Positions 50,155 through 64,000 of a DNA stretch of 64,000 nt are shown piece after piece. Source of the stretch: an uncultured Gemmatimonadota bacterium (GTDB lineage Bacteria; JAAXHH01); NCBI GenBank assembly GCA_951812955.1, contig OX638340.1, forward strand, positions 1,888,001-1,952,000. The letters are read 5' to 3'. The translations under genes and the position numbers were made by a program. Under the pieces are notes generated by a model. It did not search any database, was not told the DNA's origin, and saw only the letters and a program-made list of their open reading frames with translations. The number at the start of each line of letters is the position of its first letter. Position 1 is the stretch's first letter.

Positions 50155-51984
50155 TTACGCGAGTCCCAGTTCCATCAGTTTCTCCGTGGTGGGCCGTCCG
50201 TCCGCCGACCAGCCCCTTGCCGCGTAGTAGTCCGGCAGCATGGCGTCGAGATCGACGGTCACCCCCGCGGAAGGACCATCCTTGTGGGCTTCTTCCATCA
50301 ATCGTTTAGGCAGCGTGTCATCGGCCGCGGTGAGGCCCGCCCTGAGATTCCACAGCCGTTCGATATTCCAGATGCGCTCGCCGATGTGCACGAAGTCTTC
50401 CATGGTATAGTCTACGCCGGTGGCTGCGGACAATACGGGGATCAGGTCTTCCAGCGGCGCGCCCGCCGTGGTGAACATGCAGATGCCCGTGGCGTCGTGG
50501 GCCGTGGTCCGGTTTTGTTCCTCGGCCACCCAGACCGACTTGCCCTCGGTGCCGTGGGGATCGTGCTCGCCGGTGGTCTCGATGCCGGGTGTCCAGGCCC
50601 TCAGGTGACAGGCGCCGCGGTTGCAGGTGGCATAGGCCACGCCCATGCCCTGGAATCCCCGTGGATCGTAAGCGGGGAATTCCTGTCCCTTGACGCCCAT
50701 GAAATACTCCGGATGCTCGAATTTCTCGGTCATCCGCTTTGACCCTTCGGCCAGTTCGTCGCCGAAACCCTCCCGGAATCCCGTGGCTTCCGTCATGGCG
50801 ACCAGAGCCTTGCCGTCACCGAACCGGAACGCCATGCCCGTCTGCCCATCGCTCAGCAGGCCCCGCTCATACATTTCCATGGCCGCGGCCAGCGTGGCGC
50901 CCATGGAAATGGGATCCATGCCGAGATCGTTGCACAGGTAGTTCGCCATGACGATGGCGTCCATGTCATCCACGCCGCAGTCGGCCCCGAGCGACCAGAG
51001 GTTCTCGTATTCGGGTCCTTCCCCGGCGACCTTCCAGTTGCGGGGATGCATGTTGACCATGTACTGGTCGGCATTGGGGGAAACCTGGGTCACACGGCCG
51101 CAGGCGATGTTGCAGGCGAAGCATGCCTTGTTGGCGACCAGCCAGTTATCCTTGATGCTCTCCCCGTTGATCGCCTCGGTGCCCTCGAACTGTCCGGCCG
51201 TGAAATTGCGCGTCGGCAGCCCGCCGAAAGCGTTGACGAGGTCGATCGTTGGCGCTGTGCCTAATTCCGTAAGGCCTTGCCGGCCAGGGCTTTCGGCCAG
51301 GTGTTCGTGATAAGGCCAGATGGCGGACATGTAGTCCCGGGGCCGGGCAATCCGGACCCCCTGGTTGCCGCGTACGGCGATCGCCTTGAGGTTCTTGGAC
51401 CCCATGACGGCGCCGACGCCGGAACGGCCCGCGGCACGGTGCTTGTCGTTGACGATGCACGCGAACCGCACCAGGTTCTCGCCCGCCGGTCCGATGCCGG
51501 CCACCCGTAGTTCGGGCATGCCGGTCTCGTCGCGGATGGCGTCCTCGGTTTCCGAGACCACCTTGCCCCACACATTGGAGGCGTCGCGGATCTCGACGCG
51601 GTCATCATCGACAAGGAGGTAGCACGGACGGTCCGACCGGCCTTCCACGATCACCATGTCGTAGCCGGCGAACTTGAGTTCCGGACCCCAGTGGCCGCCT
51701 GAATTGGACGTCGTGATGGCGCCCGTCAGCGGTCCCTTGGTCACCACCATGTACCTGGATCCGCAGGAGGCGTTGGTGCCCGTCAGCGGCCCGGTGGCCA
51801 TGATCAGCTTGTTGTCCGGTCCGAGGGCGTCGACAGAGGGGTCCATCTCCTCGTAGAGGTACCGCGCGGCCAGCCCGCGGCCGCCGATGTATTCCTCGGC
51901 CCAGTCGAGCCTCAGAGGCTCTTTGGTCGCCTTGCCCCGCGAAAGATCCACCCGCAGGATATGGCCGGCCCACCCGTGTGTCAT
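50155..51984 (-). CDS. aldehyde:ferredoxin oxidoreductase family (tungstopterin) enzyme, copy 1
   Basis: Start taken at MTHGWAGHILRVDLS (ORF extends to 52044). AOR N-terminal domain plus cluster-binding C-terminal domains. Confidence 0.9.
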   Translation of the reverse strand: MTHGWAGHILRVDLSRGKATKEPLRLDWAEEYIGGRGLAARYLYEEMDPSVDALGPDNKLIMATGPLTGTNASCGSRYMVVTKGPLTGAITTSNSGGHWGPELKFAGYDMVIVEGRSDRPCYLLVDDDRVEIRDASNVWGKVVSETEDAIRDETGMPELRVAGIGPAGENLVRFACIVNDKHRAAGRSGVGAVMGSKNLKAIAVRGNQGVRIARPRDYMSAIWPYHEHLAESPGRQGLTELGTAPTIDLVNAFGGLPTRNFTAGQFEGTEAINGESIKDNWLVANKACFACNIACGRVTQVSPNADQYMVNMHPRNWKVAGEGPEYENLWSLGADCGVDDMDAIVMANYLCNDLGMDPISMGATLAAAMEMYERGLLSDGQTGMAFRFGDGKALVAMTEATGFREGFGDELAEGSKRMTEKFEHPEYFMGVKGQEFPAYDPRGFQGMGVAYATCNRGACHLRAWTPGIETTGEHDPHGTEGKSVWVAEEQNRTTAHDATGICMFTTAGAPLEDLIPVLSAATGVDYTMEDFVHIGERIWNIERLWNLRAGLTAADDTLPKRLMEEAHKDGPSAGVTVDLDAMLPDYYAARGWSADGRPTTEKLMELGLA

Positions 51985-52070
51985 GAAGAAGGCTCCGTTC
52001 CTCGGCGCTAGCCGGGTGATGCAGGGCCGCGCCCTGTGGATCACCCTTCCGGCTCATGCCGGATGAAGCG

Positions 52071-53918
52071 CTAGGTCAATCCCAGCGACGACAGCTTCTC
52101 CTGGGTGGGTTCGCCTTCCGCGTTCCAACCGCGGAGTTCGTAGTATTCCGGCAGCATCTCGCCGAGCCGGTTTACTTCGCCCTTGGTCGGGCCATCGGGG
52201 ATCGGGTCTTCGAGCAGCCGCTTAGGCAGCGTGTCGTCCTTGCCCGAAAAGCCCGCCCGCTGGTTCCACATGCGTTCGATATTCCAGACGCGTTCTCCGA
52301 CTTCCATCAGTTCGGGTACGGAGTAGGAAATCCCGGTCACCGCCTCGAGCTGGGGCTGTATTTCGTCCAGGCCCACGCCGAAGGTCAGGAACAGGCAGAG
52401 TCCAGACGCGTCCACGGTGCAGGTGGCGTCCTGGAAGATCTTCGTGATCTCTGCTTTACCTTCCGTCACGGCCGGATCCATCTTCTCCGGAATCCCCAGG
52501 ATCTCGGGGGCGACCGTGTAGCTTTTCAAATGGCAGGCGCCTCGGTTCGAGGTCGCGTAACCCAGCCCCATACCCTGGATCGCGCGGGCGTCATAGGCTG
52601 GGAATTCCTGGCCGCGCACGCCCATGAAGTACTCCGGATGATTGAACTTGGCGGTCATGCGCTTCGATCCTTCAGCCAGTTCGTCGCCGAAGCCTTCGCG
52701 ATAGGCCGCCTTCTCCACCATGGCGACCAGCGCTTCGCTGTTACCGAAGTTGAGCGCCATGCCGGTTTGCTCGTCGGTGACTGCGCCGTTTTCGTATAAC
52801 TCCATGGCCGCGGCCAGGGTGGCTCCGAAGGAGATCGGATCCATGCCGAGTACGTTGCAAAGGGCATTGGCCTTGATGAGCGCATCCAGATCGTCGATGC
52901 CGCAATCGGCACCCATGGCCCAGGCGTTCTCGTACTCCGGTCCCTCGACCGCGATCTTCCAGTTGTGCGGCCGCGTGGTCACGGTGAACTTGTCCTGCGC
53001 CTCGCCCGGAAGCTGCGACACCCTCCCGCAGGCTATCGTACAGCCAAAACACGCCTTGTTGGCCACCAGTCGCGTATCGGCAAGGGTCTCCCCGCTGATG
53101 TTGTCCGCGCCTTCGAGCTGGGATACCTGGTGGTTGTTTGTCGGCAGTGCGCCGCTCTCATTGATGATATTGACCAGCACCGCGGTGCCGTATGCGGCCA
53201 GACCCTCACCCGTTACCGGATGCTCGACCAGCTTGCTCTTCATCTCCCACATGGCCGACATGAACTTCTGCGGGTCGGCGATGGGTACGCCCCCGGTACC
53301 GCGTACGGCAATGGCTTTGAGGTTCTTGGAACCCATGACCGCGCCGACGCCGGATCGTCCGGCGGCCCGGTGCCGGTCATTGATGATGGCGGCGAAACGC
53401 ACGAGGTTTTCGCCAGCTGGACCAATACAGGTAACGACCGTGTCGTGCTGTCCCGACTCTTCCCGGACGATGTCGTCCGTCTCCCATACCGTCTTGCCCC
53501 ACAGGTGTTCTGCAGAGCAGATGCGGACGTCGTCATCACAAATGGATATGTAGGACGGAACCGGCGCCCGGCCTTCCACGATCAGCATGTCGTAGCCGGC
53601 AAACTTCAGTTCCGGCCCCCAGTGGCCGCCGGAGTTGGACGTGGTAATGGCGTTCGTCAACGCCCCCTTGGTGATCACCATGTAACGGGAACTCGTCGAT
53701 GCGTTCGTGCCGGTCATGGGACCGGTCGCGAAGATCATCTTGTTGTCCGGGCCCAGCGCTTCCGCCGCCGGGTCCATCTCTTCATAGAGGTACTTGGCCC
53801 CGAGACCGCGCCCGCCAACAAAAGACGTGGCCCAATCCATGTTGAGGGGCTCTTTGGAGATCCGACCGGTGGTCAGATCGACGCGCAGAATCGTGCCTGT
53901 CCATCCGCCGTTGCTCAT
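52071..53918 (-). CDS. aldehyde:ferredoxin oxidoreductase family enzyme, copy 2
   Basis: Start MSNGGWTGTILRVDL overlaps the ferredoxin stop as ATGA. Paralogous to copy 1. Confidence 0.9.
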   Translation of the reverse strand: MSNGGWTGTILRVDLTTGRISKEPLNMDWATSFVGGRGLGAKYLYEEMDPAAEALGPDNKMIFATGPMTGTNASTSSRYMVITKGALTNAITTSNSGGHWGPELKFAGYDMLIVEGRAPVPSYISICDDDVRICSAEHLWGKTVWETDDIVREESGQHDTVVTCIGPAGENLVRFAAIINDRHRAAGRSGVGAVMGSKNLKAIAVRGTGGVPIADPQKFMSAMWEMKSKLVEHPVTGEGLAAYGTAVLVNIINESGALPTNNHQVSQLEGADNISGETLADTRLVANKACFGCTIACGRVSQLPGEAQDKFTVTTRPHNWKIAVEGPEYENAWAMGADCGIDDLDALIKANALCNVLGMDPISFGATLAAAMELYENGAVTDEQTGMALNFGNSEALVAMVEKAAYREGFGDELAEGSKRMTAKFNHPEYFMGVRGQEFPAYDARAIQGMGLGYATSNRGACHLKSYTVAPEILGIPEKMDPAVTEGKAEITKIFQDATCTVDASGLCLFLTFGVGLDEIQPQLEAVTGISYSVPELMEVGERVWNIERMWNQRAGFSGKDDTLPKRLLEDPIPDGPTKGEVNRLGEMLPEYYELRGWNAEGEPTQEKLSSLGLT

Positions 53919-54406
53919 GCCGCGTTCCCTCCCTCGATGGACTGCAGATAGGAAGCATTGACCTTTTCGGCCCAGCCACCCAGCCAGTCGGCCGATTCGC
54001 TCTCGGTGTATTCGATCGCGCCGGTGGGACAGGCGACCGCGCAGGCGGGATTGCCGTCGCACAGATCGCACTTGAAGGCCTTCTGCGTATCCGGATTGTA
54101 GAACACCGTGCCGAAGGGACAGGCAATGGTGCACAACCCGCATCCGACGCAGTTTGCATCGGCCACGACCTTGGCGCCGGTATCCGCGTCGACACTGATG
54201 GCGTTAACGGGGCAGGCCGTCATGCACCAGGCTTCGTCGCACTGAAAACAGGTGTACGGCGCGTAACTGGCCTGCTCATCGAAAATGTTCACGCGAATCA
54301 GCGACCGGGATGGTTGAAACATGCCGGTCTGCACCCAGGAACATGCCAGTTCGCACTGCATGCACCCGGTGCATTTTTCGGGTATAATGCGTAGAGATTT
54401 AGCCAT
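53915..54406 (-). CDS. 4x[4Fe-4S] polyferredoxin (AorA-like electron-transfer subunit)
   Basis: 163 aa with four CxxCxxCxxxCP motifs. Confidence 0.9.
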   Translation of the reverse strand: MAKSLRIIPEKCTGCMQCELACSWVQTGMFQPSRSLIRVNIFDEQASYAPYTCFQCDEAWCMTACPVNAISVDADTGAKVVADANCVGCGLCTIACPFGTVFYNPDTQKAFKCDLCDGNPACAVACPTGAIEYTESESADWLGGWAEKVNASYLQSIEGGNAA

Positions 54407-55301: not shown

Positions 55302-56123
55302 ATGTCCGCCAAGGATCCCGCCCAGACTTACCGCATGCACGACGCCAATCGCCTTCACTGGGACAAGTCCGCCGGTTACTGGGCTGATATGCGCGAGCGG
55401 GACGGAATGTGGCGCCGCTGTCCGCTGGAACCCGAATTGGGATTCGCGGGCGGCGCCTTCGAGTTGATCGGATCCTTCGCCGGCGACCTGGAAGGAAAGG
55501 AAGTATGCGTCGTCGGCAGCGGGGACAATCATGCCGTCTTCGCCCTGGCGGGCATGAAGGCCCAGGTCACTTCCATCGACATATCGGAAAGGCAACTGGA
55601 AACAGCTTCCGAACGCGCGAAGCACCTGGGCCTGGCGATCGACTTCGTCCAGGCAGACGTGATGGACCTTAAGCCGCTTTGTGACAGGAAGTTCGACCTG
55701 GTCTGCTCGACCAACGGTTTCTTCGTCTGGATCGCGGATCTTCGTGCGGTATTCGAGGAGATCTTTCGCATCCTGAAACCGGGCGGACACTACGTTTTCT
55801 ACGATGTACATCCCTTCCAGAGACCCTGGAAAGACGGGAATCGGACGGTCGAAGTGGACAAACCTTACTGGCAAACCGGACCGTTACTAGACGAAAAAGA
55901 GGGCACCTTCGAATTCAACTGGACGCTCGGCGACCTGCTGAATCCGTTGGCGGATTCGGGATTCGTCCTGGGGCGTATCCTGGAACATCCCGCCGGGAAT
56001 TCGAGCTTCTGGGAAGGATCTTCCTACTTGCCCGGGGAGAAAGACAGCTTGCTCGACTGGAAGGAGAATCCCAGGGCCGCCCTGCCGGTCTGGCTTTCGG
56101 CGGCTCTGCAGCGACCGGGATAG
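55302..56123 (+). CDS. class I SAM-dependent methyltransferase
   Basis: 273 aa. VCVVGSGDNHAVFALAG motif I. Acidic post-I residue. Confidence 0.7.
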   Translation: MSAKDPAQTYRMHDANRLHWDKSAGYWADMRERDGMWRRCPLEPELGFAGGAFELIGSFAGDLEGKEVCVVGSGDNHAVFALAGMKAQVTSIDISERQLETASERAKHLGLAIDFVQADVMDLKPLCDRKFDLVCSTNGFFVWIADLRAVFEEIFRILKPGGHYVFYDVHPFQRPWKDGNRTVEVDKPYWQTGPLLDEKEGTFEFNWTLGDLLNPLADSGFVLGRILEHPAGNSSFWEGSSYLPGEKDSLLDWKENPRAALPVWLSAALQRPG

Positions 56124-56197
56124 CTCCTGGAGGTCCGACCATACAGCATGGCTATTTTAGTTCAGCAATCCTTTGAATCACTATCCCCGGATGGGCC

Positions 56198-56797
56198 ATG
56201 GGCATGAACGGCGTCGCATACTACCGCGGCCTGCCCATTGGCCGCCGGATCCACGTCACCGGAAACAGTTGTTCCGGGAAATCCACCCTGGCGAACCAGT
56301 TGGCGGCCGCGCTCGAGGTCCCCCGGGTAGAGTTGGACGCCCTCAACTGGCAGCCCGGATGGGTCAGCCTGGCTGATACGGAACCGGAGGAACTGGAATG
56401 TCGTATGACGGTAGCCACGCATGGTGAAGCCTGGGTGGTCTCCGGCTCCTACATGGGGTTTTCCCGGAAAGTCTTCTGGCCGCGCGTGGAGACGGTCGTC
56501 TGGCTGGACCTGCCGAGATACCGGCTTATCTGGCGCGTGCTGATTCGGAGTTGGAAACGCTGGCGGTCGAAGGAGTTGCTATGGGGAACGAATTACGAAC
56601 GATTCTGGCCCAACCTCAAGGTATGGAACCGGGAAGACTCGCTGATCTGGTGGATCATTACGCAGCAGCGCAGAAAGCAGCAGCGCATGCATGCCCTGAT
56701 GGGCGATCCGGCCTGGAACCATATCACGTTCATCCGGCTCGGGTCCGCGGCCGAGATCGACGCGTTCGGGAGGGAAGTAGGGCTTTCAAATGACTGA
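56198..56797 (+). CDS. P-loop NTPase (adenylate-kinase/topology-modulation-like kinase fold)
   Basis: 199 aa. Walker A GNSCSGKST. Small NMP-kinase-like size. Confidence 0.55.
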   Translation: MGMNGVAYYRGLPIGRRIHVTGNSCSGKSTLANQLAAALEVPRVELDALNWQPGWVSLADTEPEELECRMTVATHGEAWVVSGSYMGFSRKVFWPRVETVVWLDLPRYRLIWRVLIRSWKRWRSKELLWGTNYERFWPNLKVWNREDSLIWWIITQQRRKQQRMHALMGDPAWNHITFIRLGSAAEIDAFGREVGLSND

Positions 56798-56996
56798 ATG
56801 GGACCCTTCGATCCTTTTCAAACGCCGATTAGATAGTACGGCTCTATCAGCGTACATATCCATCTGCTCCGCGCCTTACCTTTCAAACACATACGCTTGC
56901 CTAATCAGATTCAGATACGAGTAGAACAGAAGACGTATCAGGCTAATTCAAAATTAAACTTTGATTTGGCCTAATTTGATGTTTAACTTGCAGATT

Positions 56997-58181
56997 ATGA
57001 TTAAACGAGACCTTGCCGAGGAGTTGAAAAAGGCGGCACGGCGGTTCCCTTCAATCACGCTTACCGGACCACGGCAAAGTGGGAAGACCACACTGTGTCG
57101 AGCGCTATTTCCCCGTCTGCCCTACGCGACCCTTGAAGCGACGGACGTACGCTCTTTTGCAAGGGATGATCCCCGGGGGTTCCTGGCTCAGTTCGCCGGA
57201 GGCGCGATCATCGACGAGGTACAGCGCGTCCCCGACTTGCTGTCCTATTTGCAGGGCGTTATCGACGAAGAACCGGCGCCCGGCCGTTGGATTCTGACGG
57301 GTTCGCAGAACCTGTCTTTGCTCGAATCGGTCAGCCAATCGCTGGCCGGAAGGACCGCCATATACCATCTGCTTCCCTTGAGCCGATGTGAGATCCTGCG
57401 CTTTGACCGATATCCAGTCAGTCTCGAAGAGACGCTGTTCGCCGGGACGTACCCACGGGTTTTCGATCGCGGACTTGAACCGGCTGACTGGTTCAGGTCC
57501 TATGTCGCCACGTACGTCGAGCGTGACGTGCGCTCCACTAACAACGTAGGGGACCTGACGACGTTCCAACGATTCGTAGAGCTCTGCGCCGGGAGAACGG
57601 CGCAACTTGTCAACTATTCGTCACTGGCCAACGACTGCGGCATATCACAACCGACAGCCAAGGCGTGGCTCAGCATACTCGAGACCAGTTTTCTCGTTTT
57701 CCGCCTGCCGGCATTTCACTCGAATCTGCGAAAGCGACTTGTGAAGATGCCCAAACTGCACTTCTACGATACGGGTCTCGTCTGCTGGCTGCTGGGAATA
57801 CGCACGCCCGATCAACTGCGAAGCCATCCGTTGCGGGGTTCCGTCTTCGAAACCTGGGTTGTCTCGGAAATCACGAAACACAGACTCAACCGCGGCGAAT
57901 CGCCGAGGCTAAGTTTCTATCGCGATCGCAATGGCGTCGAAGTCGATCTCATCATCGAACAACCTTCTCATCGAACACTGGTCGAGGCAAAGTCGGGCGA
58001 AACGGTATCCGCGAATCTGTTCGCCGGAGCGCAGAGGGTCCAGAAACATATCACCCGGCCAACCCGCCCGGATTCCATAGCCGTGGTCTACGGCGGCGAC
58101 CAGTTCCAACATCGAACGCCGGGGTCTCTGGTACCCTGGAGTGGGCTTCACGAAGCGGATTTCTGGAAAACGGGGTCCTGA
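56997..58181 (+). CDS. AAA+ ATPase with C-terminal DUF4143 (PD-(D/E)xK-like) domain
   Basis: Walker A GPRQSGKTTL, Walker B IIDEVQ. C-terminal GVEVDLIIE...VEAK matches the D...ExK nuclease motif. ORF begins at TTG 56961; first ATG is 56997. Confidence 0.8.
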   Translation: MIKRDLAEELKKAARRFPSITLTGPRQSGKTTLCRALFPRLPYATLEATDVRSFARDDPRGFLAQFAGGAIIDEVQRVPDLLSYLQGVIDEEPAPGRWILTGSQNLSLLESVSQSLAGRTAIYHLLPLSRCEILRFDRYPVSLEETLFAGTYPRVFDRGLEPADWFRSYVATYVERDVRSTNNVGDLTTFQRFVELCAGRTAQLVNYSSLANDCGISQPTAKAWLSILETSFLVFRLPAFHSNLRKRLVKMPKLHFYDTGLVCWLLGIRTPDQLRSHPLRGSVFETWVVSEITKHRLNRGESPRLSFYRDRNGVEVDLIIEQPSHRTLVEAKSGETVSANLFAGAQRVQKHITRPTRPDSIAVVYGGDQFQHRTPGSLVPWSGLHEADFWKTGS

Positions 58182-58762
58182 TGAGTCGGCTCGGTTTGCC
58201 GGATCCCAAACCGGTGCTTTACCGCATCATGCACCTGGCGGTCTGCGTCGCCATAGTGGTATCCTTACCTGCCGCCGCCCAGGAAACAGCGGAGAATAAC
58301 ACCATGTTCTGGTCGACGACGCTGAAGATGATCCGTGCGAAGTTCCCCGGGGTCGCCCAGCTTTCCACCGACAGCCTGCAGGTTTGGCTCGAAGCGGCGC
58401 CGGACCGGCCGGGCCGGGAAAGCCCGTTGCTTCTCGACGTGCGGGAAAAGGAAGAATACGAGGTCAGCCACCTGGAAGGCGCCCTGCTCGCCACCTCGGA
58501 AAAAGAAGCACTGCAGGCGCTGGAAGACGTTCCCCCGGACCAGCCCGTCGTGCTGTACTGTTCCGTGGGCTACCGCTCATCGGAAATGGCCGGCTATCTG
58601 GAGAAGAAGGGGTTCAGGAAAGTCTTCAACCTGGAGGGGTCGATCTTCGCCTGGGCGAACGAGGGACGGCCCGTATACCGGGGCGACGATCGCGCGCATG
58701 TCGTCCATCCCTACGACCGCGTATGGGGCAAGCTGCTGAAGAAGGCGCTTCGGGCTAGGTAA
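58181..58762 (+). CDS. secreted rhodanese-domain protein
   Basis: Start overlaps the upstream stop (TGATG). Signal peptide LAVCVAIVVSLPAAAQE. Active-site YCSVGYRS. Confidence 0.75.
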   Translation: MSRLGLPDPKPVLYRIMHLAVCVAIVVSLPAAAQETAENNTMFWSTTLKMIRAKFPGVAQLSTDSLQVWLEAAPDRPGRESPLLLDVREKEEYEVSHLEGALLATSEKEALQALEDVPPDQPVVLYCSVGYRSSEMAGYLEKKGFRKVFNLEGSIFAWANEGRPVYRGDDRAHVVHPYDRVWGKLLKKALRAR

Positions 58763-58984
58763 GCCGAGGCTATTCGATTTTGGCTGTTGCATTGCTCCCT
58801 TTGGCCTAGTCACGAGAAAGGTGGATTGTTGACACGGAAAGGATGGTTCGTTGAAGAGTGGTACATTGTTGAAGCGTAACAGACGAACCGGGGCGGTTTC
58901 CCTAATCGATCGGCTCGGGTTCCCTGAACTGCGCTGACGTGACGAGCCAAGTCGCTAATTCAAAGGGTGATCCGTCTAAACGCG

Positions 58985-59014
58985 TTGACAGGATGGTTCT
59001 CAAATGCTTATAGT
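58985..59014 (+). promoter_or_regulatory. sigma70-like promoter TTGACA-N18-TATAGT upstream of the methyltransferase/endonuclease pair
   Basis: TTGACA at 58985-58990 and TATAGT at 59009-59014. The TTGACA-GGATGGTTC motif is also present ~155 bp upstream (58827). Confidence 0.35.
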
Positions 59015-59150
59015 CCGGTAGAGAACCACTCAGTTGTATCTCGGCCTCATGCGGTCACGTATTGCGCAGTCCAAAACCAGTAAAATGGCCGTGCGAACTG
59101 CCGATCATGGTATGTTACAGCACACATGCGATGACAAGCGAACGATTAAC

Positions 59151-60098
59151 ATGAACCATTCGCCAACCGATACGTCCGCGCCGACAGGTACGCTCGCGCC
59201 AACCAGGCACGACCCTATCGAAGTTTCTCCGATACGGGCGGTGAACGTGGCTTTGGTCCCTCAACGAAGTCCGCTGCGGTACCCCGGTGGAAAGACGTGG
59301 CTGATTCCGCATATCCGGTTCTGGCTCGGCAAGATCGACCCTTCGCCTCGACTTCTGATCGAACCCTTCGCCGGCGGCGGGATCGTCTCCCTGACAGCGG
59401 TCATGGAAGGACTGGCCGAGCGGTGCATCATGGCGGAACTGGACCCCGACGTGGCTGCTTTCTGGCAGGCGGCGCTCAGGTCCGGACCTGAGCTCTGCGA
59501 CAAGGTGCTGCGCTTCCGACCAACGCGGGAAGCCGTCGAAGCCGTGGCGAGTATCAGACCGAGCGACCCGGTAGACCATGGTTTCCGCACGCTCGTGCTC
59601 AACCGAACGCGAAGGGGTGGCATTCTGGCTCCCGGCGCGGCGCTCAGTCGGGCGGGAGAAAACGGGAAGGGCGTCGCGTCCCGCTGGTATCCCGAAACCA
59701 TCGTAGGCCGTTTACGAGAGATCGCGGAACACGCCGACCGCATCGGCTTTCGCGAAACCGACGGCATCGGGTTGTTGGAGGAGTTGCTGGAAGCACGCGC
59801 GGGATCGGCGCTGGAGAACCCTTCCGACCCGGTGGTCTTCGCCGACCCTCCGTACACGGCCGGCGGCAAGCGCGCGGGAAGGCGGCTGTACACCCACAAC
59901 GAGATCGACCATCACCGGTTGTTCGAACTGCTTGCGGACAGCGGTGCGCGTTTCCTGATGACCTACGACAGGTCGTCCGAGATCGTGGCTCTCAGCCGGA
60001 AGCATGGATTCCACGCGGTACAGGTGACCATGAAGAACACCCATCACGCACGGATACCGGAACTGATCATCACCCCCGAACCGGTGTTCGTCAGTTGA
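59151..60098 (+). CDS. Dam-like (D12 class, alpha-group) N6-adenine DNA methyltransferase
   Basis: RYPGGK N-terminal AdoMet motif and DPPY catalytic motif. ORF opens at 59034, so the exact start is uncertain. Confidence 0.8.
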   Translation: MNHSPTDTSAPTGTLAPTRHDPIEVSPIRAVNVALVPQRSPLRYPGGKTWLIPHIRFWLGKIDPSPRLLIEPFAGGGIVSLTAVMEGLAERCIMAELDPDVAAFWQAALRSGPELCDKVLRFRPTREAVEAVASIRPSDPVDHGFRTLVLNRTRRGGILAPGAALSRAGENGKGVASRWYPETIVGRLREIAEHADRIGFRETDGIGLLEELLEARAGSALENPSDPVVFADPPYTAGGKRAGRRLYTHNEIDHHRLFELLADSGARFLMTYDRSSEIVALSRKHGFHAVQVTMKNTHHARIPELIITPEPVFVS

Positions 60099-60973
60099 GT
60101 TCCCGTTACGGCATCGCGGAATGGTACGGGTTGCCATTCCCCTATCTCCCACCTGCTGCCCGCCATCATCTTGCAAAAAAAGCGTTACGGGAAGACCCCA
60201 ATGCTCCCGCGTGTCCGTTTCAAAACGGCCGGCCTCCATGCCGAAAGCGTGGCGGAATATGTTCCCTTGTTCGCTATGAACGGGATTCGGACGGAAGGCT
60301 TGGCTTGCCAAAAGGAAATCCGGTCATCGTTTGTCCGTCCCGATTCGAGGAAGAGCAACTGCTCGTTACCTGGTTGGCCGAGATCGTTGGCTTTGGACCG
60401 GACGAGGCGATGATCGCTCGCGAAGTAGCCTTCATGGAAGGAACCAGCACGGAGAGACCGGCTGGAAAAATCGATCTAGTCGTCGCCAGGGCCTCCAATG
60501 ACGATCTGAAATGGTTTGGACTGGAAATACAAGCCGTCTATTTCTCAGGTCAAGGCATGCCGTCCGAGTTCGCCAACCTACGGGACGACGATCATCGAAG
60601 ACCACCGTTTCCAAACGCGGTCCGTAGACCGGACTGGCGCTCTTCGAGCGCAAAGCGCCTCATGCCGCAGTTGCAAATCAAAGTGCCGACGCTACGCCGA
60701 TGGGGTTCGAAACTCGCCGTGTCGGTAGACCGGCCGTTTTTCGATTCGATTGGTGGTCCCAGTGCGCATCCCAGCCAGGACCTCAACGATGGGGACATCA
60801 TCTGGTTGATCCCGGAGTTGAAGCGGGAAGCCGGTGGTAACTTCAGGCTCACTCGGGGACATTGGGAAGTGCTCACGTTGGAGGATACGACCCGGAAACT
60901 CCTTGCGGCGGAAACGATCCGGCGGGAAGCGTTTGAGCAGGAGCTCCGCAGCAAACTCGAAGCGCTTCGGTGA
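60095..60973 (+). CDS. candidate type II restriction endonuclease (Cys-rich N-terminus, NotI-family-like)
   Basis: TTG start overlapping the methyltransferase stop (TTGA). Cys ladder ACPF...PCRK...GICS...VCPS. Possible D...E-x-Q/K region (KIDLVV...LEIQ). The NotI-family attribution is from memory and needs checking. Confidence 0.5.
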   Translation: MSSRYGIAEWYGLPFPYLPPAARHHLAKKALREDPNAPACPFQNGRPPCRKRGGICSLVRYERDSDGRLGLPKGNPVIVCPSRFEEEQLLVTWLAEIVGFGPDEAMIAREVAFMEGTSTERPAGKIDLVVARASNDDLKWFGLEIQAVYFSGQGMPSEFANLRDDDHRRPPFPNAVRRPDWRSSSAKRLMPQLQIKVPTLRRWGSKLAVSVDRPFFDSIGGPSAHPSQDLNDGDIIWLIPELKREAGGNFRLTRGHWEVLTLEDTTRKLLAAETIRREAFEQELRSKLEALR

Positions 60974-61073
60974 GGCAGCGGACGACACCCGGGATACTGG
61001 GGTTCAAGATCGACGACTCGGTGTTAACCTTATGTCATCGGATGTGTAGTGCACCCCAAAATGGGACAAGTAG

Positions 61074-61748
61074 TTAAGCTACAGTTTTAACACGTGTCAT
61101 CCTCTGCTCGAACTCGACCGGCGGTCTGTAGTCCAGGGCCGAGTGCAAGCGCTTGCGATTGTATAGTTTGTCGATGAAGTAGCCGATGCGTGATCGGGCT
61201 TCTTCCAGGGATTCGTACTCGTAGAGATAGACCTCCTCGTATTTGAGCGTCCTGATGAAGCGCTCTGCCCTGGCGTTGTCATAGGGGTTGCCTTGCCGGC
61301 TCATGCTGATCCGTATGCCAGCGTTCTTGAGCGTGTCTACATAGGCTTTCGAGGCATACTGCACGCTCCGGTCGGAGTGATGCACAAGCCCTTTCTGCGC
61401 TGGTCTGGCGGCCAGGGCGCTGTCGAGGGCGTTCAGGGCCAAGGTGGCATCGAGGGTTCGATCCAAGGCCCAGCCGATGCATCTTCTGCTGCAGGCGTCA
61501 AGGATCACCGCCAGATAGACCCATTCGCGAGCCAGCCTTATGTAGGTGATGTCGGATACCCAGAGCTGGTTGACATTGGTTACGTTCAGTTCCGGGACCA
61601 GGTTGGCGTAAACGGCGCGGTCGTGATTCGAGTCGGTGGTCGCTACGAAGGCTCGGCGCCGCAGGGCAAGCAGGTTGTCCTCGCGCATGAGACGCAGAAC
61701 GCGCTTGTGGTTCACATGGTATCCCATACGCTTTAGCGCGCGGGTCAT
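61074..61748 (-). CDS. IS3-family transposase OrfB (DDE integrase core)
   Basis: 224-aa frame with the rve-domain DDE pattern (...VSDITYI...LDACSRRCIGW...HSDRSVQY...). The N-terminal part lies in the -1 frame upstream. Confidence 0.85.
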   Translation of the reverse strand: MTRALKRMGYHVNHKRVLRLMREDNLLALRRRAFVATTDSNHDRAVYANLVPELNVTNVNQLWVSDITYIRLAREWVYLAVILDACSRRCIGWALDRTLDATLALNALDSALAARPAQKGLVHHSDRSVQYASKAYVDTLKNAGIRISMSRQGNPYDNARAERFIRTLKYEEVYLYEYESLEEARSRIGYFIDKLYNRKRLHSALDYRPPVEFEQRMTRVKTVA

Positions 61749-62064
61749 GGGACGGTAACCGTAGGCGGGTCAGGAAAGGGCGAGCCTGTGGATCTGATCC
61801 CGCAGTGCAAGGTCCGGATCCGTACGACCACGACGACCGCGGTAGTAGCTGGATCGACCGATCGAGAGCGTCCTGCACAGACGCTTGACCACGGCGCGGT
61901 CGGTGGACGCCTTTGATTGAGCGACCAGGCAGATCATGAGCTTCCTCCATTGCCTCGGGCTGAGCGTGGGATCTCCTCGAGCCGACTCAAGACTTTTTTT
62001 AACACATCGTTCTCCATGGTCAGTTGACCGACCTTGCGCTCAAGGGCCTAGGGTCCGGGCCTCG

Positions 62065-62259
62065 TCACTTACCGCCTTGCCATCCATTACCGGGGAAAGC
62101 GCGGTCGCCCTGGCGGCGAAGCTGCTGACGCCACCTGTGGATCAGCGTAGGATGGACCTGGTGTTCTCGGGCCAACTGGCTGATGGATTTGCCCGAATCG
62201 GCTTCCTGGAGAACCTGGAGCTTGAACTCGCGGGTGAACTGACGGCGTTTCAGGGACAT
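62065..62259 (-). CDS. IS3-family transposase OrfA (HTH)
   Basis: MSLKRRQFTREFKLQVLQEADSGKSISQLAREHQVHPTLIHRWRQQ is a typical IS3 OrfA helix-turn-helix. Confidence 0.75.
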   Translation of the reverse strand: MSLKRRQFTREFKLQVLQEADSGKSISQLAREHQVHPTLIHRWRQQLRRQGDRAFPGNGWQGGK

Positions 62260-62328: not shown

Positions 62329-63252
62329 TTACAGAGGAAGTTTGTTGTAGCTGATTCCGAATCCAAACCGCACATCGTAAGAGCTCTGAGTCGGGACGGT
62401 GCTAAGCTCTTCGATATTCGAAGTATCGATCTTAGAGCCGCCCTGCATCGTCGGACCTTGACTTATATGAGCACCAAAGGTGAGCCAAGTAGACTTTCCG
62501 ATCTCCAAACTTGGACCGAAGATATATTCTAGAACCGTTCCCGGTTCGCCTCCGATTTCTGCGAGCGTTCCTAAACTCAAGTTTACATCCCAACCATTAC
62601 CAATCCGCAAAACGTGCGAATTAACAACGGTTCCTGGCATCACTTGGAAATCCGACCAACTTGTGAAGAAACCGACGCTAATAGAGAACGGGGACTCGCA
62701 AACGAACGTGACCAAAGGATACTCATTCTTCTTGGCGGCTTCGTTTTTCTCCCCGTCCTCATTATCTTGCGGGAACAAGTCGAAAACCACCAAGGTCCAC
62801 TCTTCTTTTCGAGATTTGAAGTCGCACTCGATCGACTGTGAGATTTCAGACTTGGTGCCCTTGTGCATCTCAATAGATGATTGAAGGTATCTTTTTAATG
62901 CCGTAATCTGATCGTTCGCTTGACTCCACTTACTTTCTGCTAATTCAATCTCTACAAGAGCACTGCCAGTCTGCGTCAACGCACTGTCAATCTGTGCCAA
63001 CAAAACACTGTCAGGTAATTGCAATGCACCGCCAAGTGCCTCCCTGTTGTTCCTATTTGCCAAGTTCATCAAACGATCCTGAAGGGAAACTTGGCGATCC
63101 TGAAGGGAAGATATCTGCGGCCAGTTTCCCTTCTCAATTTCACCTATGAGTTGACCGCTTCTGTATATCAGTGTGTCGCTTGGAAAATACATATTACTAA
63201 TATCAATGAAATCGCGCAGTTTCTTAATCTGATTAGAGGTTACTTGACGCAA
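62329..63252 (-). CDS. hypothetical protein (coiled-coil N-terminus, beta-rich C-terminus), lower-GC cargo
   Basis: 307-aa ORF in a ~47% GC segment. No recognisable motifs. May be the 3' part of a frameshifted larger gene together with 63240-63767. Confidence 0.4.
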   Translation of the reverse strand: MRQVTSNQIKKLRDFIDISNMYFPSDTLIYRSGQLIGEIEKGNWPQISSLQDRQVSLQDRLMNLANRNNREALGGALQLPDSVLLAQIDSALTQTGSALVEIELAESKWSQANDQITALKRYLQSSIEMHKGTKSEISQSIECDFKSRKEEWTLVVFDLFPQDNEDGEKNEAAKKNEYPLVTFVCESPFSISVGFFTSWSDFQVMPGTVVNSHVLRIGNGWDVNLSLGTLAEIGGEPGTVLEYIFGPSLEIGKSTWLTFGAHISQGPTMQGGSKIDTSNIEELSTVPTQSSYDVRFGFGISYNKLPL

Positions 63253-63767
63253 GCTGTTAGCCTGGTTTTGTGCAACGTCGGTTTCTTAAGCAAAGAGGCG
63301 GTTTCTCTAAATAAAGAATCGATGCCTTCAGGCGGTGTGCCAACGTTGCTTATATTAAACGAGGAATTGACGTTTTGAAACACACTATCAGCCTGGATTT
63401 CATTCGTCATCTCCCATTGGCATAGCTGGCGCAGGTAGTTGAGCGTATTGGGGGCGTCAAGCGCCTCAACCTGACGGCGGATTTCGTATCTATAGCGAAC
63501 TAAGTTAAGATCCACTACTGTGATGGATGCTTTGTAATGAACTTGCACTTCACCATAGGAACCTTGGGGCCTTTGAAGGGAGTAAGTCAAATCTTGTCCG
63601 GCAGCTACCGGCATATCTGATCCGACAAACAACAGCACACCGGCGATGTGGAAAAGAGCATTTAATAGACGATACTTCGTCCGAGATCCCCGTGGTGGTC
63701 CTAAGGAAACGAGCGGTATTCCTGAAATGACGGTTCTCACGTTTCGGTTCTCCGACATCCCTTTCAT
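63240..63767 (-). CDS. hypothetical secreted protein (possible 5' part of a split gene)
   Basis: 175-aa ORF with a signal-like LFHIAGVLLFVGSDMPVAAGQD. Ends 12 nt inside the start of the next ORF, in another frame. Confidence 0.35.
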   Translation of the reverse strand: MKGMSENRNVRTVISGIPLVSLGPPRGSRTKYRLLNALFHIAGVLLFVGSDMPVAAGQDLTYSLQRPQGSYGEVQVHYKASITVVDLNLVRYRYEIRRQVEALDAPNTLNYLRQLCQWEMTNEIQADSVFQNVNSSFNISNVGTPPEGIDSLFRETASLLKKPTLHKTRLTACVK

Positions 63768-63858: not shown

Positions 63859-64000
63859 ATGTTGAAAAGACGCAGACGGGCCCAGCGTCCGGTGCAAGTT
63901 TCAGGTGGCTCTCGAAGCGCTCATGGGACTGAAGGCCATCAGCCAGTTGGCCGCGGAGCATCAAGGCCAACACAATCAGATCACCAAATGGAAACGCCGG
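63859..64000 (+). pseudogene. second IS3-family orfA (5' end), apparent frameshift near codon 7-9, truncated by window edge
   Basis: Frame 0 MLKRRR... then frame +1 ...KFQVALEALMGLKAISQLAAEHQGQHNQITKWKRR. This aligns residue-for-residue with OrfA of the 61043-62321 element. The switch lies in CGGGCCCAG (63877-63886). Confidence 0.4.

What the first reader, a model, noticed from the sequence alone, without database searches (positions are those of the whole stretch)
56198..60973. Compact defence-island-like module: P-loop kinase, AAA+ ATPase-PD-(D/E)xK fusion (DUF4143), secreted rhodanese, and a coupled Dam-like methyltransferase/Cys-rich endonuclease pair, bounded by AT-rich DNA and IS elements
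An AT-rich (~40% GC) intergenic stretch at 56798-56996 carries three GCCTAAT-type direct repeats. The next block ends with an IS3 element and lower-GC cargo, consistent with horizontal acquisition. The AAA+ ATPase (Walker A/B) carries a C-terminal D...ExK nuclease-like motif (COG1373/DUF4143 type). This architecture is enriched in defence islands but functionally uncharacterised. Its stop overlaps the start of a signal-peptide rhodanese. The neighbouring RM pair is translationally coupled (TTGA overlap).
Basis: partly seen in the sequence, partly recalled or inferred. Interest (0 to 1): 0.7.

Follow-up and report, generated by a model that had tools for sequence, protein, structure and literature searches.

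The report
Restriction system beside a self-contained ATPase gene
The stretch is not one imported defence module: three of its genes are a stable part of this bacterial lineage's chromosome, an ordinary restriction-modification pair sits in an insertion hotspot next to them, and the ATPase-nuclease gene carries its own conserved palindrome and promoter in more than 15 phyla.

Summary

- **Native block.** The P-loop kinase-like gene, the AAA_14/DUF4143 ATPase and the rhodanese are syntenic in 11 related Candidatus Latescibacterota loci.
- **Variable slot.** The DNA after the rhodanese differs between relatives. Here it holds a Dam-like (D12) methyltransferase, a NotI-family Cys4 endonuclease, a dead IS3 and low-GC ORFs, inserted about 9 codons into a histidine-kinase gene. 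Relatives carry MmeI-like enzymes, a decayed MmeI, or nothing.
- **Restriction pair.** The methyltransferase-endonuclease pairing recurs in about 40 metagenome loci, so this is a genuine but ordinary Type II system.
- **ATPase.** It matches PADLOC candidate PDC-S01, which is unvalidated. It is 68-77% identical across more than 15 phyla, yet shares no neighbour with those homologues. Their neighbours are mostly housekeeping genes.
- **"GCCTAAT repeats".** Two of the three are the arms of a 33-bp palindrome conserved upstream of the gene in 85 of 89 loci. The palindrome overlaps a -35 box, and a -10 box lies about 7 nt before the ATG, implying a leaderless transcript.

I infer an autoregulated, portable single-gene cassette. 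Its function is unproven.

The parts
56198..56797 (+). P-loop NTPase, kinase-like (Walker A GNSCSGKST). Part of the native syntenic block, not a defence gene.
   Evidence: Weak Pfam AAA_18/AAA_33 matches and NCBIfam 'DNA topology modulation protein' matches, all below cut-off. A 199-aa orthologue occupies the same position in 11 related loci at 75-85% identity. Absent next to the ATPase in 77 other loci.
56940..56972 (.). 33-bp palindrome AGGCTAATTCAAA-N7-TTTGATTTGGCCT, a putative operator. The right arm contains the -35 hexamer TTGATT (56961-56966).
   Evidence: It is the only match in 64 kb, with 0 expected by chance. It is conserved at a fixed position, its centre mostly 37-45 nt before the start codon, in 85 of 89 loci from more than 15 phyla. 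Mirrored changes on both arms number 73 cells against 29.8 +/- 4.4 in shuffles, with 0 of 500 shuffles reaching the observed value.
56984..56989 (+). Putative -10 hexamer TAACTT, 17 nt after the -35 and 7 nt before the ATG. This implies a leaderless mRNA.
   Evidence: A TAnnnT hexamer 15-18 nt after TTGAnn occurs in 72 of 85 loci. The start codon lies 6-8 nt after it in 62 of 85. In the window alone the match is weak (7 of 12) and is not called by the consensus scan.
56997..58181 (+). AAA_14 ATPase, predicted winged-helix segment, and DUF4143 PD-(D/E)xK domain (394 aa). PADLOC candidate PDC-S01.
   Evidence: Pfam and PADLOC matches. Catalytic and Walker residues are conserved. Homologues are 68-77% identical across phyla. 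No conserved neighbour.
58181..58762 (+). Rhodanese with a hydrophobic N-terminal signal-like segment and the active-site loop CSVGYRS. The start codon overlaps the ATPase stop by 1 nt.
   Evidence: Pfam Rhodanese 1.3e-17. The overlap is seen. An orthologue directly follows the ATPase in all 11 related loci and in none of the 77 other loci.
58810..58896 (+). Remnant of the upstream region and first ~9 codons of a GAF/PAS hybrid histidine-kinase gene. It marks the left breakpoint of the insertion (about 58897) and contains an 18-nt insertion relative to L001 (possibly a local duplication).
   Evidence: Aligns to L001 18767-18835, the start of a 785-aa kinase gene. No further kinase homology is found anywhere in the window.
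58985..59014 (+). Sigma-70-type promoter TTGACA-18-TATAGT for the restriction-modification operon. Its -10 is bracketed by the inverted repeat GGTTCTC (58995-59001) / GAGAACC (59021-59027).
   Evidence: 11 of 12 consensus match. Sequence read. Function not tested.
59151..60098 (+). D12-class (Dam-like, alpha-type) N6-adenine DNA methyltransferase with FAGGG and DPPY motifs. The start is uncertain: the ORF opens at 59034, and ATG codons lie at 59076 and 59151.
   Evidence: Pfam MethyltransfD12 1.2e-10; PADLOC PD-Lambda-5_B 1.3e-41 and MTase_II 1.4e-27. PDB relatives are 7m6b and 2dpm. Homology to relatives begins near 59217.
60095..60973 (+). NotI-family restriction endonuclease (292 aa) with four invariant Cys. 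The TTG start overlaps the methyltransferase stop (TTGA).
   Evidence: Pfam NotI 143 bits against a cut-off of 22. C40, C49, C56, C80, D127, E144 and Q146 are invariant in 25 homologues. A homologue of the methyltransferase lies next to the endonuclease in about 40 of 66 metagenome loci.
61074..62259 (-). IS3-family insertion sequence, now a pseudogene.
   Evidence: NCBIfam transpos_IS3 248 bits for the orfB fragment. A three-frame reading shows a frameshift and stop in orfA and an in-frame stop in orfB.
62329..63767 (-). Two overlapping low-GC ORFs (307 and 175 aa; 46-48% GC) of unknown function. They belong to the inserted DNA. The right boundary lies beyond the window.
   Evidence: No Pfam, NCBIfam or PADLOC match. 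GC values. Absent from all related loci.

Best explanation
The region is a mosaic of two things with different histories.

**1. A native chromosomal block (shown by comparison).** The order is SAM-methyltransferase, P-loop kinase-like gene, AAA_14/DUF4143 ATPase, rhodanese. This block is inherited vertically in a clade of Candidatus Latescibacterota.

**2. The ATPase is an older, self-contained single-gene cassette inside that block.**
- Shown: it carries a 33-bp palindrome overlapping its -35 box, and a -10 box about 7 nt before the ATG. It therefore needs no ribosome-binding site.
- Shown: palindrome, promoter and ORF occur together in more than 15 phyla at 68-77% protein identity, with no conserved partner gene.
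- Inferred: the protein binds its own palindrome as a dimer, through the helix-turn-helix-like segment (residues ~206-232), and represses its own promoter.
- Inferred, unproven: it acts as an ATP-driven PD-(D/E)xK nuclease, as the PDC-S01 label suggests.

**3. A variable slot immediately downstream of the rhodanese (shown by comparison).** In this genome a Type II restriction-modification operon, an IS3 (now dead) and low-GC ORFs were inserted about 9 codons into a histidine-kinase gene.

**4. How the restriction pair works (inferred from the families).** Its own strong promoter drives the adenine methyltransferase. The NotI-fold Cys4 endonuclease is translationally coupled to it through the TTGA overlap, so methylation keeps pace with restriction. 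Unmethylated incoming DNA is cut at an unknown adenine-containing site.
For: **Native block.** Eleven loci, with ATPase identity of 84-98%, share AOR-Fer4-GYD-(SAM-MT)-kinase-ATPase-rhodanese. Nucleotide homology stops at the rhodanese stop codon.

**Variable slot.**
- L002, L085, L086 and L088 carry no restriction system or mobile DNA at this position.
- L001 and L084 carry a 922-aa MmeI-like enzyme.
- L004 carries MmeI fragments and a partial kinase gene.
- The kinase remnant in the window is at 58810-58896.

**Restriction pair.** The pairing is conserved in two gene arrangements. The Cys4 and D/E/Q residues are invariant.

**ATPase cassette.**
- No shared neighbour in 77 loci; neighbours are heterogeneous.
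- The palindrome is present in 85 of 89 loci at 10-16 of 16 symmetric positions, against 7-8 in shuffles.
- Mirrored covariation reaches a level matched by 0 of 500 shuffles.
- There is no G-T over A-C bias: 59 against 46 cells.
- A second palindrome copy lies ahead of an adjacent NAT_N/GNAT_C gene in 8 loci.
- ATPase GC3 is 0.66, against 0.78 for both flanking genes.
Against: - No experiment links the ATPase to the palindrome. A mutual-information test between palindrome variants and protein columns was dominated by phylogeny and did not point to the helix-turn-helix segment.
- The structure model is poor: mean pLDDT 61, and below 50 for residues 127-265. The winged-helix assignment and the nuclease fold therefore rest on Pfam, on conserved motifs and on predicted secondary structure.
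- In the window itself the ATPase promoter hexamers are weak, 7 of 12.
- The palindrome would also form a stable hairpin if transcribed, -12.7 to -26.3 kcal/mol.
- One PDC-S01 representative gave no protection against T4, T5 or T7 in E. coli.
- The right end of the insertion lies outside the window.
- The endonuclease shows no sequence-level match to the solved NotI structure. Its catalytic residues are assigned from family invariance only.
Confidence: 0.72

Rival explanations
1. One reading: all five genes form one horizontally acquired defence island, bounded by AT-rich DNA on the left and the IS3 on the right.
For: The ATPase matches PDC-S01 and the methyltransferase matches PD-Lambda-5_B and MTase_II. 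The IS3 and low-GC DNA lie downstream. The genes are tightly packed on one strand. Restriction systems recur next to this block in 4 of 12 genomes.
Against: The kinase-like gene, ATPase and rhodanese are syntenic in all 11 related loci, including four with no restriction system. GC content is native. The real breakpoint is at about 58897, inside a kinase-gene remnant. The AT-rich stretch is a conserved promoter region. The kinase-like gene has only a marginal PADLOC match (mad8, E 1.4e-3) and the rhodanese none.
Confidence: 0.04
2. The palindrome is a nucleic-acid hairpin rather than a protein operator. It could insulate the cassette from read-through transcription or form a cruciform. The ATPase would not regulate itself.
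For: Predicted hairpins are stable, -12.7 to -26.3 kcal/mol with z-scores of -4 to -9. Both arms change together in 12 of 15 pairs. The cassette lands in many transcriptional contexts, where an insulator would be useful.
Against: G-T and A-C mismatches are about equally common, 59 against 46, so there is no strand-specific RNA signature. The tails printed after the stem show no consistent T-run. The arm sequence itself is conserved (GGCTAATTCAAA), not just its ability to pair. The right arm doubles as the -35 box at fixed spacing. A second copy lies ahead of another gene's leader.
Confidence: 0.2
3. The ATPase is not an anti-phage effector. It would be a DNA-binding regulator or a domesticated selfish gene, with a small regulon that in some genomes includes an adjacent acyltransferase. 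It would persist because it moves easily between genomes.
For: Neighbours in 75 genomes are mostly housekeeping genes; 2-3 of 149 match any single defence-type model. The lineage has kept it at one locus. A second operator copy lies upstream of NAT_N/GNAT_C genes. PDC-S01 gave no protection in the one published test. Of 2.9 million viral contigs, one carries a 69%-identical relative (with the palindrome) and a second carries a partial 46% match.
Against: The nuclease signature E285/D317/E330/K332 and the Walker motifs are under strong purifying selection. A pure regulator would not need them. PDC-S01 was defined by embedding in defence loci. Distant DUF4143 ATPases lie beside the same restriction family in 3 contigs. 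In this lineage the gene sits beside a restriction-system hotspot.
Confidence: 0.3
4. The restriction-modification pair is a decaying remnant, as the MmeI gene is in L004, and no longer restricts DNA.
For: The neighbouring IS3 is dead. A relative carries a fragmented MmeI gene in the same slot. The endonuclease uses a TTG start.
Against: Both ORFs are full-length against their homologues. All family-invariant residues are present in the window copy. The promoter matches 11 of 12 consensus positions. The same overlapping gene arrangement occurs in L089.
Confidence: 0.1

Closest known systems
Type II restriction-modification systems with a NotI-family (PF12183) endonuclease
   Same: The Pfam NotI match is far above threshold. 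There are four invariant cysteines in the N-terminal part, which I recall, and did not test, as resembling NotI's Cys4 metal site. An acidic/ExQ-type core is conserved. An adjacent, co-oriented and overlapping methyltransferase gene is present.
   Different: The partner is a D12-class N6-adenine methyltransferase, so the recognition site presumably contains adenine and is unknown. The protein is too distant from NotI for a sequence or profile match to the solved structure.
PADLOC candidate PDC-S01 (COG1373; AAA_14 + DUF4143 ATPase-nuclease)
   Same: The HMM match is 4.7e-108. It is a single gene combining an ATPase with a PD-(D/E)xK-superfamily domain.
   Different: PDC-S01 is a prediction without a known mechanism, and one representative failed to protect E. 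coli. This subfamily is not embedded in defence islands. It carries a conserved palindrome and leaderless promoter that I did not find described in the searched literature.
ORC/Cdc6 and clamp-loader type AAA+ proteins
   Same: They are the best structural matches to the confidently modelled N-terminal ATPase domain. In ORC/Cdc6 the ATPase is followed by a winged-helix DNA-binding domain, which I state from memory.
   Different: The matches are weak (TM 0.2-0.3) and come from a poor model. No initiator has a C-terminal PD-(D/E)xK domain. This is a resemblance of the ATPase fold only.
Self-repressed mobile genes with a palindromic operator over the -35 box, such as restriction-system controller (C) proteins and autoregulated toxin-antitoxin operons
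   Same: A dyad-symmetric site overlaps the promoter of a horizontally mobile, potentially toxic gene.
   Different: There is no separate regulator gene here, so the candidate binder is the enzyme itself. Binding has not been tested.
PD-lambda-5 (Vassallo et al. 2022, PMC9519451)
   Same: The methyltransferase matches PD-Lambda-5_B at 1.3e-41.
   Different: The partner gene gives no match to PD-Lambda-5_A or to any other PADLOC model. PD-lambda-5 is described as a compacted prophage RM+Abi system. Here the partner is a NotI-type endonuclease.

Membership tests
Type II restriction-modification system | A DNA methyltransferase with SAM-binding and catalytic motifs | tested here: met
   Pfam MethyltransfD12 42 bits against a cut-off of 22; PADLOC MTase_II 1.4e-27. 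FAGGG and DPPY motifs are visible in the translation. PDB adenine methyltransferases 7m6b and 2dpm match.
Type II restriction-modification system | A separate endonuclease gene adjacent to the methyltransferase, with the pairing conserved in relatives | tested here: met
   Pfam NotI 1.3e-41. A homologue of the methyltransferase lies next to the endonuclease in about 40 of 66 loci. It is in tandem in close relatives (55-76% identity) and convergent in distant ones (33-48%).
Type II restriction-modification system | Sequence-specific methylation and cleavage | not testable with these tools
   This needs methylome data or enzyme assays. The recognition site is unknown.
NotI endonuclease family (PF12183) | Cys4 metal-binding motif and a conserved acidic catalytic core | tested here: inconclusive
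   C40, C49, C56, C80, D127, E144 and Q146 are invariant in 25 homologues. They could not be aligned to the solved NotI structure, because there is no PDB match by sequence or profile.
PADLOC PDC-S01 | Match to the PDC-S01 HMMs; a single-gene ATPase plus PD-(D/E)xK architecture | tested here: met
   PDLC04790 at 4.7e-108. AAA_14 and DUF4143 domains. The D317/E330/K332 signature is conserved. There is no conserved partner gene.
PADLOC PDC-S01 | Located in defence islands ('guilt by embedding') | tested here: not met
   Of 149 immediate neighbours in 75 genomes of other phyla, no defence-type model matched more than 2-3 proteins (Type II/III methyltransferase models 2, MzaA 3). The rest are housekeeping or unrelated genes. 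In this lineage the gene does sit beside a restriction-system hotspot.
PADLOC PDC-S01 | Anti-phage activity | not testable with these tools
   In the literature, validation is pending, and one representative gave no protection against T4, T5 or T7.
PD-(D/E)xK nuclease fold for DUF4143 | An alpha-beta-beta-beta-alpha-beta core with D on strand 2 and ExK on strand 3 | tested here: inconclusive
   The motif is conserved. The model's secondary structure fits: H280-298, E305-309, E315-321, E326-331, H343-352, E359-365. However, pLDDT there is only 60-80, and the fold search returned only AAA+ matches. DUF4143 is listed as PD-(D/E)xK in PMC3424549.
PD-lambda-5 | Both components A and B present | tested here: not met
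   Only B matches (1.3e-41). The endonuclease has no PADLOC match at E <= 0.01.
Horizontally acquired genomic island (whole 56198-60973 segment) | Absent from the same locus in related genomes | tested here: not met
   56198-58762 is present and syntenic in all 11 related loci. Only DNA beyond about 58897 is unique to this genome.
IS3-family insertion sequence | Intact orfA/orfB transposase | tested here: not met
   The family match is clear: NF033516 at 248 bits. However, orfA is frameshifted and orfB has an in-frame stop.

The most novel reading that the evidence does not exclude
The AAA_14/DUF4143 (PDC-S01-type) ATPase-nuclease may be a self-sufficient, horizontally mobile single-gene unit. 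It would bring its own dyad operator, promoter and leaderless start codon, and so could be expressed and self-repressed in any bacterial phylum. The protein would recognise the same palindrome it is regulated by. In some genomes it would also control an adjacent acyltransferase gene. If so, this is the first cis-regulatory and DNA-recognition handle on one of the most common uncharacterised 'defence candidate' families.
Probability: 0.35. Interest if true: 0.65.

Novelty: new member of a known kind. Interest (0 to 1): 0.42.

Why it matters
**As reported.** The finding resolves into ordinary parts: a new Type II restriction-modification pair in an insertion hotspot, next to native genes. The result shows that tight packing of defence-looking genes can be a coincidence of history. 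Comparison with a few related genomes separates native genes from imported ones.

**The ATPase.** PDC-S01-type genes are reported as the fourth most commonly detected 'defence' system in prokaryotes, yet they have no known mechanism.
- A palindrome and leaderless promoter conserved with the gene across more than 15 phyla gives a concrete hypothesis: the gene represses itself and is portable between hosts.
- It also supplies a defined 33-bp DNA ligand for binding, structural and reporter experiments.
- The native promoter may matter for heterologous tests, one of which was negative.

Tried and rejected
- **Exact-sequence look-ups** of the window's endonuclease and ATPase found nothing. The source genome itself is not in the collection.
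- **Rfam scan** of 54-64 kb at E <= 0.1 gave no RNA family.
- **PDB sequence and profile searches** found no relative for the endonuclease. For the ATPase they returned only one marginal whole-sequence match (8g28, 'ATPase, AAA family', E 0.0027) and P-loop noise.
- **AlphaFold2 model of the ATPase** from 62 homologues was poor (pLDDT 61), because all the homologues are more than 70% identical. Foldseek against the PDB then returned only AAA+ clamp-loader and ORC matches, so the nuclease fold was not tested structurally.
- **Mutual information** between palindrome variants and protein columns was dominated by the variable C-terminus and by phylogeny, and was uninformative.
- **Viral origin** rejected. 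Of 2.9 million viral contigs, one carries a 69%-identical relative and a second a partial 46% match. The palindrome pattern has no exact match in viral contigs.
- **ATPase-rhodanese or ATPase-kinase as a functional pair** rejected. The linkage exists only within the one lineage.
- **Palindrome as a canonical intrinsic terminator** rejected. The tails printed after the stem show no consistent T-run, and the consensus terminator scan of 56100-61100 did not flag it in the window.
- **PD-lambda-5 membership** rejected. The A component is missing.
- **Literature searches** for DUF4143, COG1373 and PDC-S01 gave no functional study. The AAA_14 search returned only unrelated papers.

Full report
**1. 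What is in the sequence**

| Coordinates | Gene | Key evidence |
|---|---|---|
| 56198-56797 | P-loop kinase-like protein | Only weak AAA_18/AAA_33 and 'DNA topology modulation' matches, below cut-off |
| 56997-58181 | AAA_14 + DUF4143 ATPase | PADLOC candidate PDC-S01, 4.7e-108 |
| 58181-58762 | Rhodanese | Hydrophobic N-terminus; start overlaps the ATPase stop (TGATG) |
| ORF from 59034, probably starting at 59076 or 59151, to 60098 | D12-class adenine methyltransferase | Pfam MethyltransfD12; PADLOC MTase_II |
| 60095-60973 | NotI-family endonuclease | TTG start overlaps the methyltransferase stop (TTGA) |

- The intergenic stretch 56798-56996 is 40.7% GC.
- Downstream lie an IS3 element and two ORFs of 46-48% GC with no family match.
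- The IS3 is dead. Its orfA is frameshifted and stopped, and its orfB has an in-frame stop.
- The five genes have GC of 0.57-0.63, inside the window's native range of 0.54-0.65.

**2. Comparison with related genomes splits the 'module' in two**

The ATPase's closest homologues (84-98% identity) come from Candidatus Latescibacterota metagenome-assembled genomes.

*The native block.*
- Eleven such loci (L001-L006, L084-L088) share the order aldehyde oxidoreductase(s), ferredoxin, GYD protein, (SAM methyltransferase), 199-aa kinase-like gene, ATPase, rhodanese.
- Nucleotide homology to the window runs through this block and stops at the rhodanese stop codon, 58762-58769.

*The variable slot after the rhodanese.*
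- Four loci have no restriction system or mobile DNA there (L002, L085, L086, L088). They continue with convergent SAM-methyltransferase genes, a 2-hydroxyacid dehydrogenase and Alternative Complex III genes.
- L001 and L084 carry a 922-aa MmeI-like restriction-modification enzyme. L084 also has ParA-like and Fic genes.
- L004 has fragmented MmeI and a partial kinase gene.
- Only the window has the D12/NotI pair, the IS3 and the low-GC ORFs.

*The left breakpoint.*
- Window 58810-58896 aligns to the upstream region and first ~9 codons of the GAF/PAS histidine-kinase gene that follows the island in L001. The window copy has an 18-nt insertion relative to L001.
- The window's insertion therefore begins at about 58897, inside that gene.
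- The right end lies beyond position 64000.

**3. The restriction-modification pair is genuine and ordinary**

- A scan of metagenome contigs with the endonuclease returned 66 loci.
- About 40 of them also carry a homologue of the methyltransferase next to the endonuclease. It lies immediately upstream and co-oriented in close relatives (55-76% identity), and convergent in distant ones (33-48%).
- An alignment of 25 endonucleases shows four invariant cysteines (C40, C49, C56, C80) and invariant D127, E144 and Q146.
- The protein is too far from NotI itself to match its PDB sequence, even with a profile.
- The methyltransferase has the FAGGG and DPPY motifs and matches solved adenine methyltransferases.
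- A near-consensus promoter, TTGACA-18-TATAGT, lies at 58985-59014.
- The methyltransferase also matches PD-Lambda-5_B, but the partner matches no PADLOC model, so this is not PD-lambda-5.
- I infer a standard Type II system. The methyltransferase comes first, the endonuclease is translationally coupled to it, and the recognition site is unknown.

**4. The ATPase is a stand-alone gene with its own conserved control region**

*No partner gene.*
- A scan of one genome per species gave 80 loci, and 546 candidates in all.
- Seventy-seven of the loci examined lie outside the Latescibacterota clade above. They come from more than 15 phyla, including Acidobacteriota, Binatia, Dadabacteria, Thermodesulfobacteriota, Planctomycetota, Chloroflexota, Gemmatimonadota, Nitrospirales, Alpha- and Gammaproteobacteria, Rhodothermales, and a second, separate group of Latescibacterota.
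- Protein identity to the window ATPase is 68-77% in these loci.
- None of the 77 has a homologue of the kinase-like gene, the rhodanese, the methyltransferase or the endonuclease nearby.
- Their 149 immediate neighbours are heterogeneous and mostly housekeeping: Hsp70, ThiC, carbamoyl-phosphate synthase, penicillin-binding proteins and sigma factors.
- No defence-type model matched more than 2-3 of the 149 neighbours, and two are transposases.

*The palindrome.*
- Aligning the upstream DNA of the Latescibacterota loci showed that almost all of it diverges. The exception is a block, AGGCTAATTCAAA...TTGATTTAGCCT, just before the start codon.
- The same element lies upstream of the gene in 85 of 89 loci. 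It matches 10-16 of 16 symmetric positions, against 7-8 for shuffled sequence. Its centre lies mostly 37-45 nt before the start codon.
The third is not conserved.
- On a gapless 82-sequence alignment, 12 of 15 arm pairs show changes on both sides. There are 73 such cells, against 29.8 +/- 4.4 in shuffles, with 0 of 500 shuffles reaching that number. All slid registers collapse.
- The relatedness of the sequences inflates such statistics, but the register control does not share that bias.
- G-T and A-C mismatches are about equally common (59 against 46). This argues for a constraint on duplex DNA rather than on a strand-specific RNA hairpin.

*The promoter.*
- The inner right arm reads TTGAAT, TTGATT or TTGACA.
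- A TAnnnT hexamer follows after 15-18 nt in 72 of 85 loci.
- The start codon begins 6-8 nt after that hexamer in 62 of 85 loci.
- This leaves no room for a ribosome-binding site and implies a leaderless mRNA.
- In the window the elements are TTGATT (56961-56966), TAACTT (56984-56989) and ATG (56997). On its own this is a weak match, and the consensus scan does not call it.

*Further observations.*
- In eight loci a second copy of the palindrome lies downstream of the ATPase, ahead of the leader of a NAT_N/GNAT_C acyltransferase gene.
- The pattern has no exact match in 2.9 million viral contigs. One viral contig carries a 69%-identical relative of the gene, with the palindrome upstream of it, and a second carries a partial 46% match.

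**5. Mechanism: what is shown and what is inferred**

*Shown.*
- The history of the locus is a mosaic of a native block and an insertion slot.
- The methyltransferase-endonuclease pairing is conserved.
- The ATPase has no conserved partner.
- The palindrome is conserved, shows mirrored covariation and has a fixed geometry relative to the promoter.
- Walker A/B residues (K30, D73, E74 in 82 of 82) and the nuclease signature are conserved: E285 82/82, D317 81/82, E330 77 E plus 5 D, K332 80/82.

*Inferred.*
- The ATPase binds the palindrome as a dimer through the nearly invariant helix-turn-helix-like segment, residues ~206-232, and represses its own promoter.
- The cassette of promoter, operator and leaderless start explains how the gene can function after transfer between phyla.
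- The nuclease acts on DNA in an ATP-dependent manner.
- Its role in phage defence remains a database prediction. Validation is pending, and one representative did not protect E. coli.

*Rivals.* The main alternatives are a structural hairpin or insulator and a non-defence regulatory or selfish role.

**6. Limits**

- The AlphaFold2 model is poor (pLDDT 61), because every available homologue is more than 70% identical. The fold search saw only the AAA+ domain.
- Nuclease-fold support therefore rests on Pfam and literature classification, on motif conservation and on predicted secondary structure.
- The coevolution test was uninformative.
- My impression that many of the genomes come from sponge or coral microbiomes rests on isolate names. 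The search method favours close relatives of the query, so the phylum list is a lower bound and the habitat pattern may be a sampling bias.

**7. Verdict**

- The restriction-modification pair is a new member of a known kind.
- The ATPase belongs to a known candidate family of unknown mechanism.
- The conserved palindrome and leaderless promoter that travel with the ATPase are a useful new lead, and I did not find them described in the literature searched.

Noticed in passing
L018 12079; L021 11391; L022, L025, L036 and L037 11215; L027 11385; L034 12504: A second copy of the ATPase palindrome lies downstream of the ATPase. It sits about 90 nt ahead of a ~430-aa NAT_N/GNAT_C acyltransferase gene. 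In some loci an APH phosphotransferase gene lies in between. This suggests a small shared regulon in one clade.
   Followed up: partly
L056 9815 and 9940: Two palindrome copies lie 125 nt apart upstream of one ATPase gene. There is no second gene between them.
   Followed up: no
window 58953-58964: A single half-site, CGCTAATTCAAA, differs by one base from the ATPase palindrome arm. It lies about 20 nt upstream of the restriction-modification promoter and has no matching right arm. Two such matches occurred in 1 of 100 shuffles, so this may be chance.
   Followed up: no
window 58995-59001 and 59021-59027: The inverted repeat GGTTCTC / GAGAACC brackets the -10 box of the restriction-modification promoter. 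It could be an operator for control of the operon. No controller-protein gene is present.
   Followed up: no
L013, L015, L017 (~11181-11309); L045 11200-11275; L035 9853-9928; L054 9855-9930; L031 9556-9628; L055 9514-9590: A tRNA gene lies within about 500 nt of the ATPase cassette in 8 of 60 loci, roughly 5 independent cases. My back-of-envelope expectation from typical tRNA density is about 1.5. No integrase gene turned up among the immediate neighbours.
   Followed up: partly
proteins P0029, P0061, P0078 and others: Many homologues are about 560 aa long, with a beta-rich C-terminal extension of about 170 aa. Some of these match the CarboxypepD_reg-like family PF13620. The window copy lacks the extension and instead overlaps the rhodanese start.
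   Followed up: no
L103 608-1384; L104 1934-2881 (-); L150 5364-6599 (-): Distant DUF4143 ATPases (25-29% identity) lie beside the same D12/NotI restriction family in three metagenome contigs. Each has its own, different repeat just upstream: a 9-nt inverted repeat in L104 and direct repeats in L103 and L150.
   Followed up: partly
window 58763-58896 vs L001 11799-18767: The closest relative has a different island of about 7 kb (MmeI-like enzyme, two DUF1353 genes, an AAA_lid fragment). It is inserted about 50-130 nt to the left of the window's insertion point, so there are two separate insertion events in one short interval. The window's kinase-gene remnant also carries an 18-nt insertion relative to L001.
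   Followed up: partly
window 62329-63767 (-): Two overlapping low-GC ORFs (307 and 175 aa) have no family match. A perfect 15-nt direct repeat, CGATCCTGAAGGGAA, occurs twice at 63074-63109.
   Followed up: no
window 56997-58181 vs its flanking genes: Third-codon-position GC of the ATPase is 0.66, and of the endonuclease 0.61. Both are well below the kinase-like gene, the rhodanese and the oxidoreductase (0.78-0.79). This fits a foreign origin for the ATPase despite its stable position in this lineage.
   Followed up: partly
window 50155-54143 (-): Two tandem aldehyde:ferredoxin oxidoreductase paralogues lie next to a 4Fe-4S protein gene. They are about 96-98% identical in protein to those of relatives whose neighbouring genes are only 66-92% identical. 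They are far more conserved than the rest of the locus.
   Followed up: no
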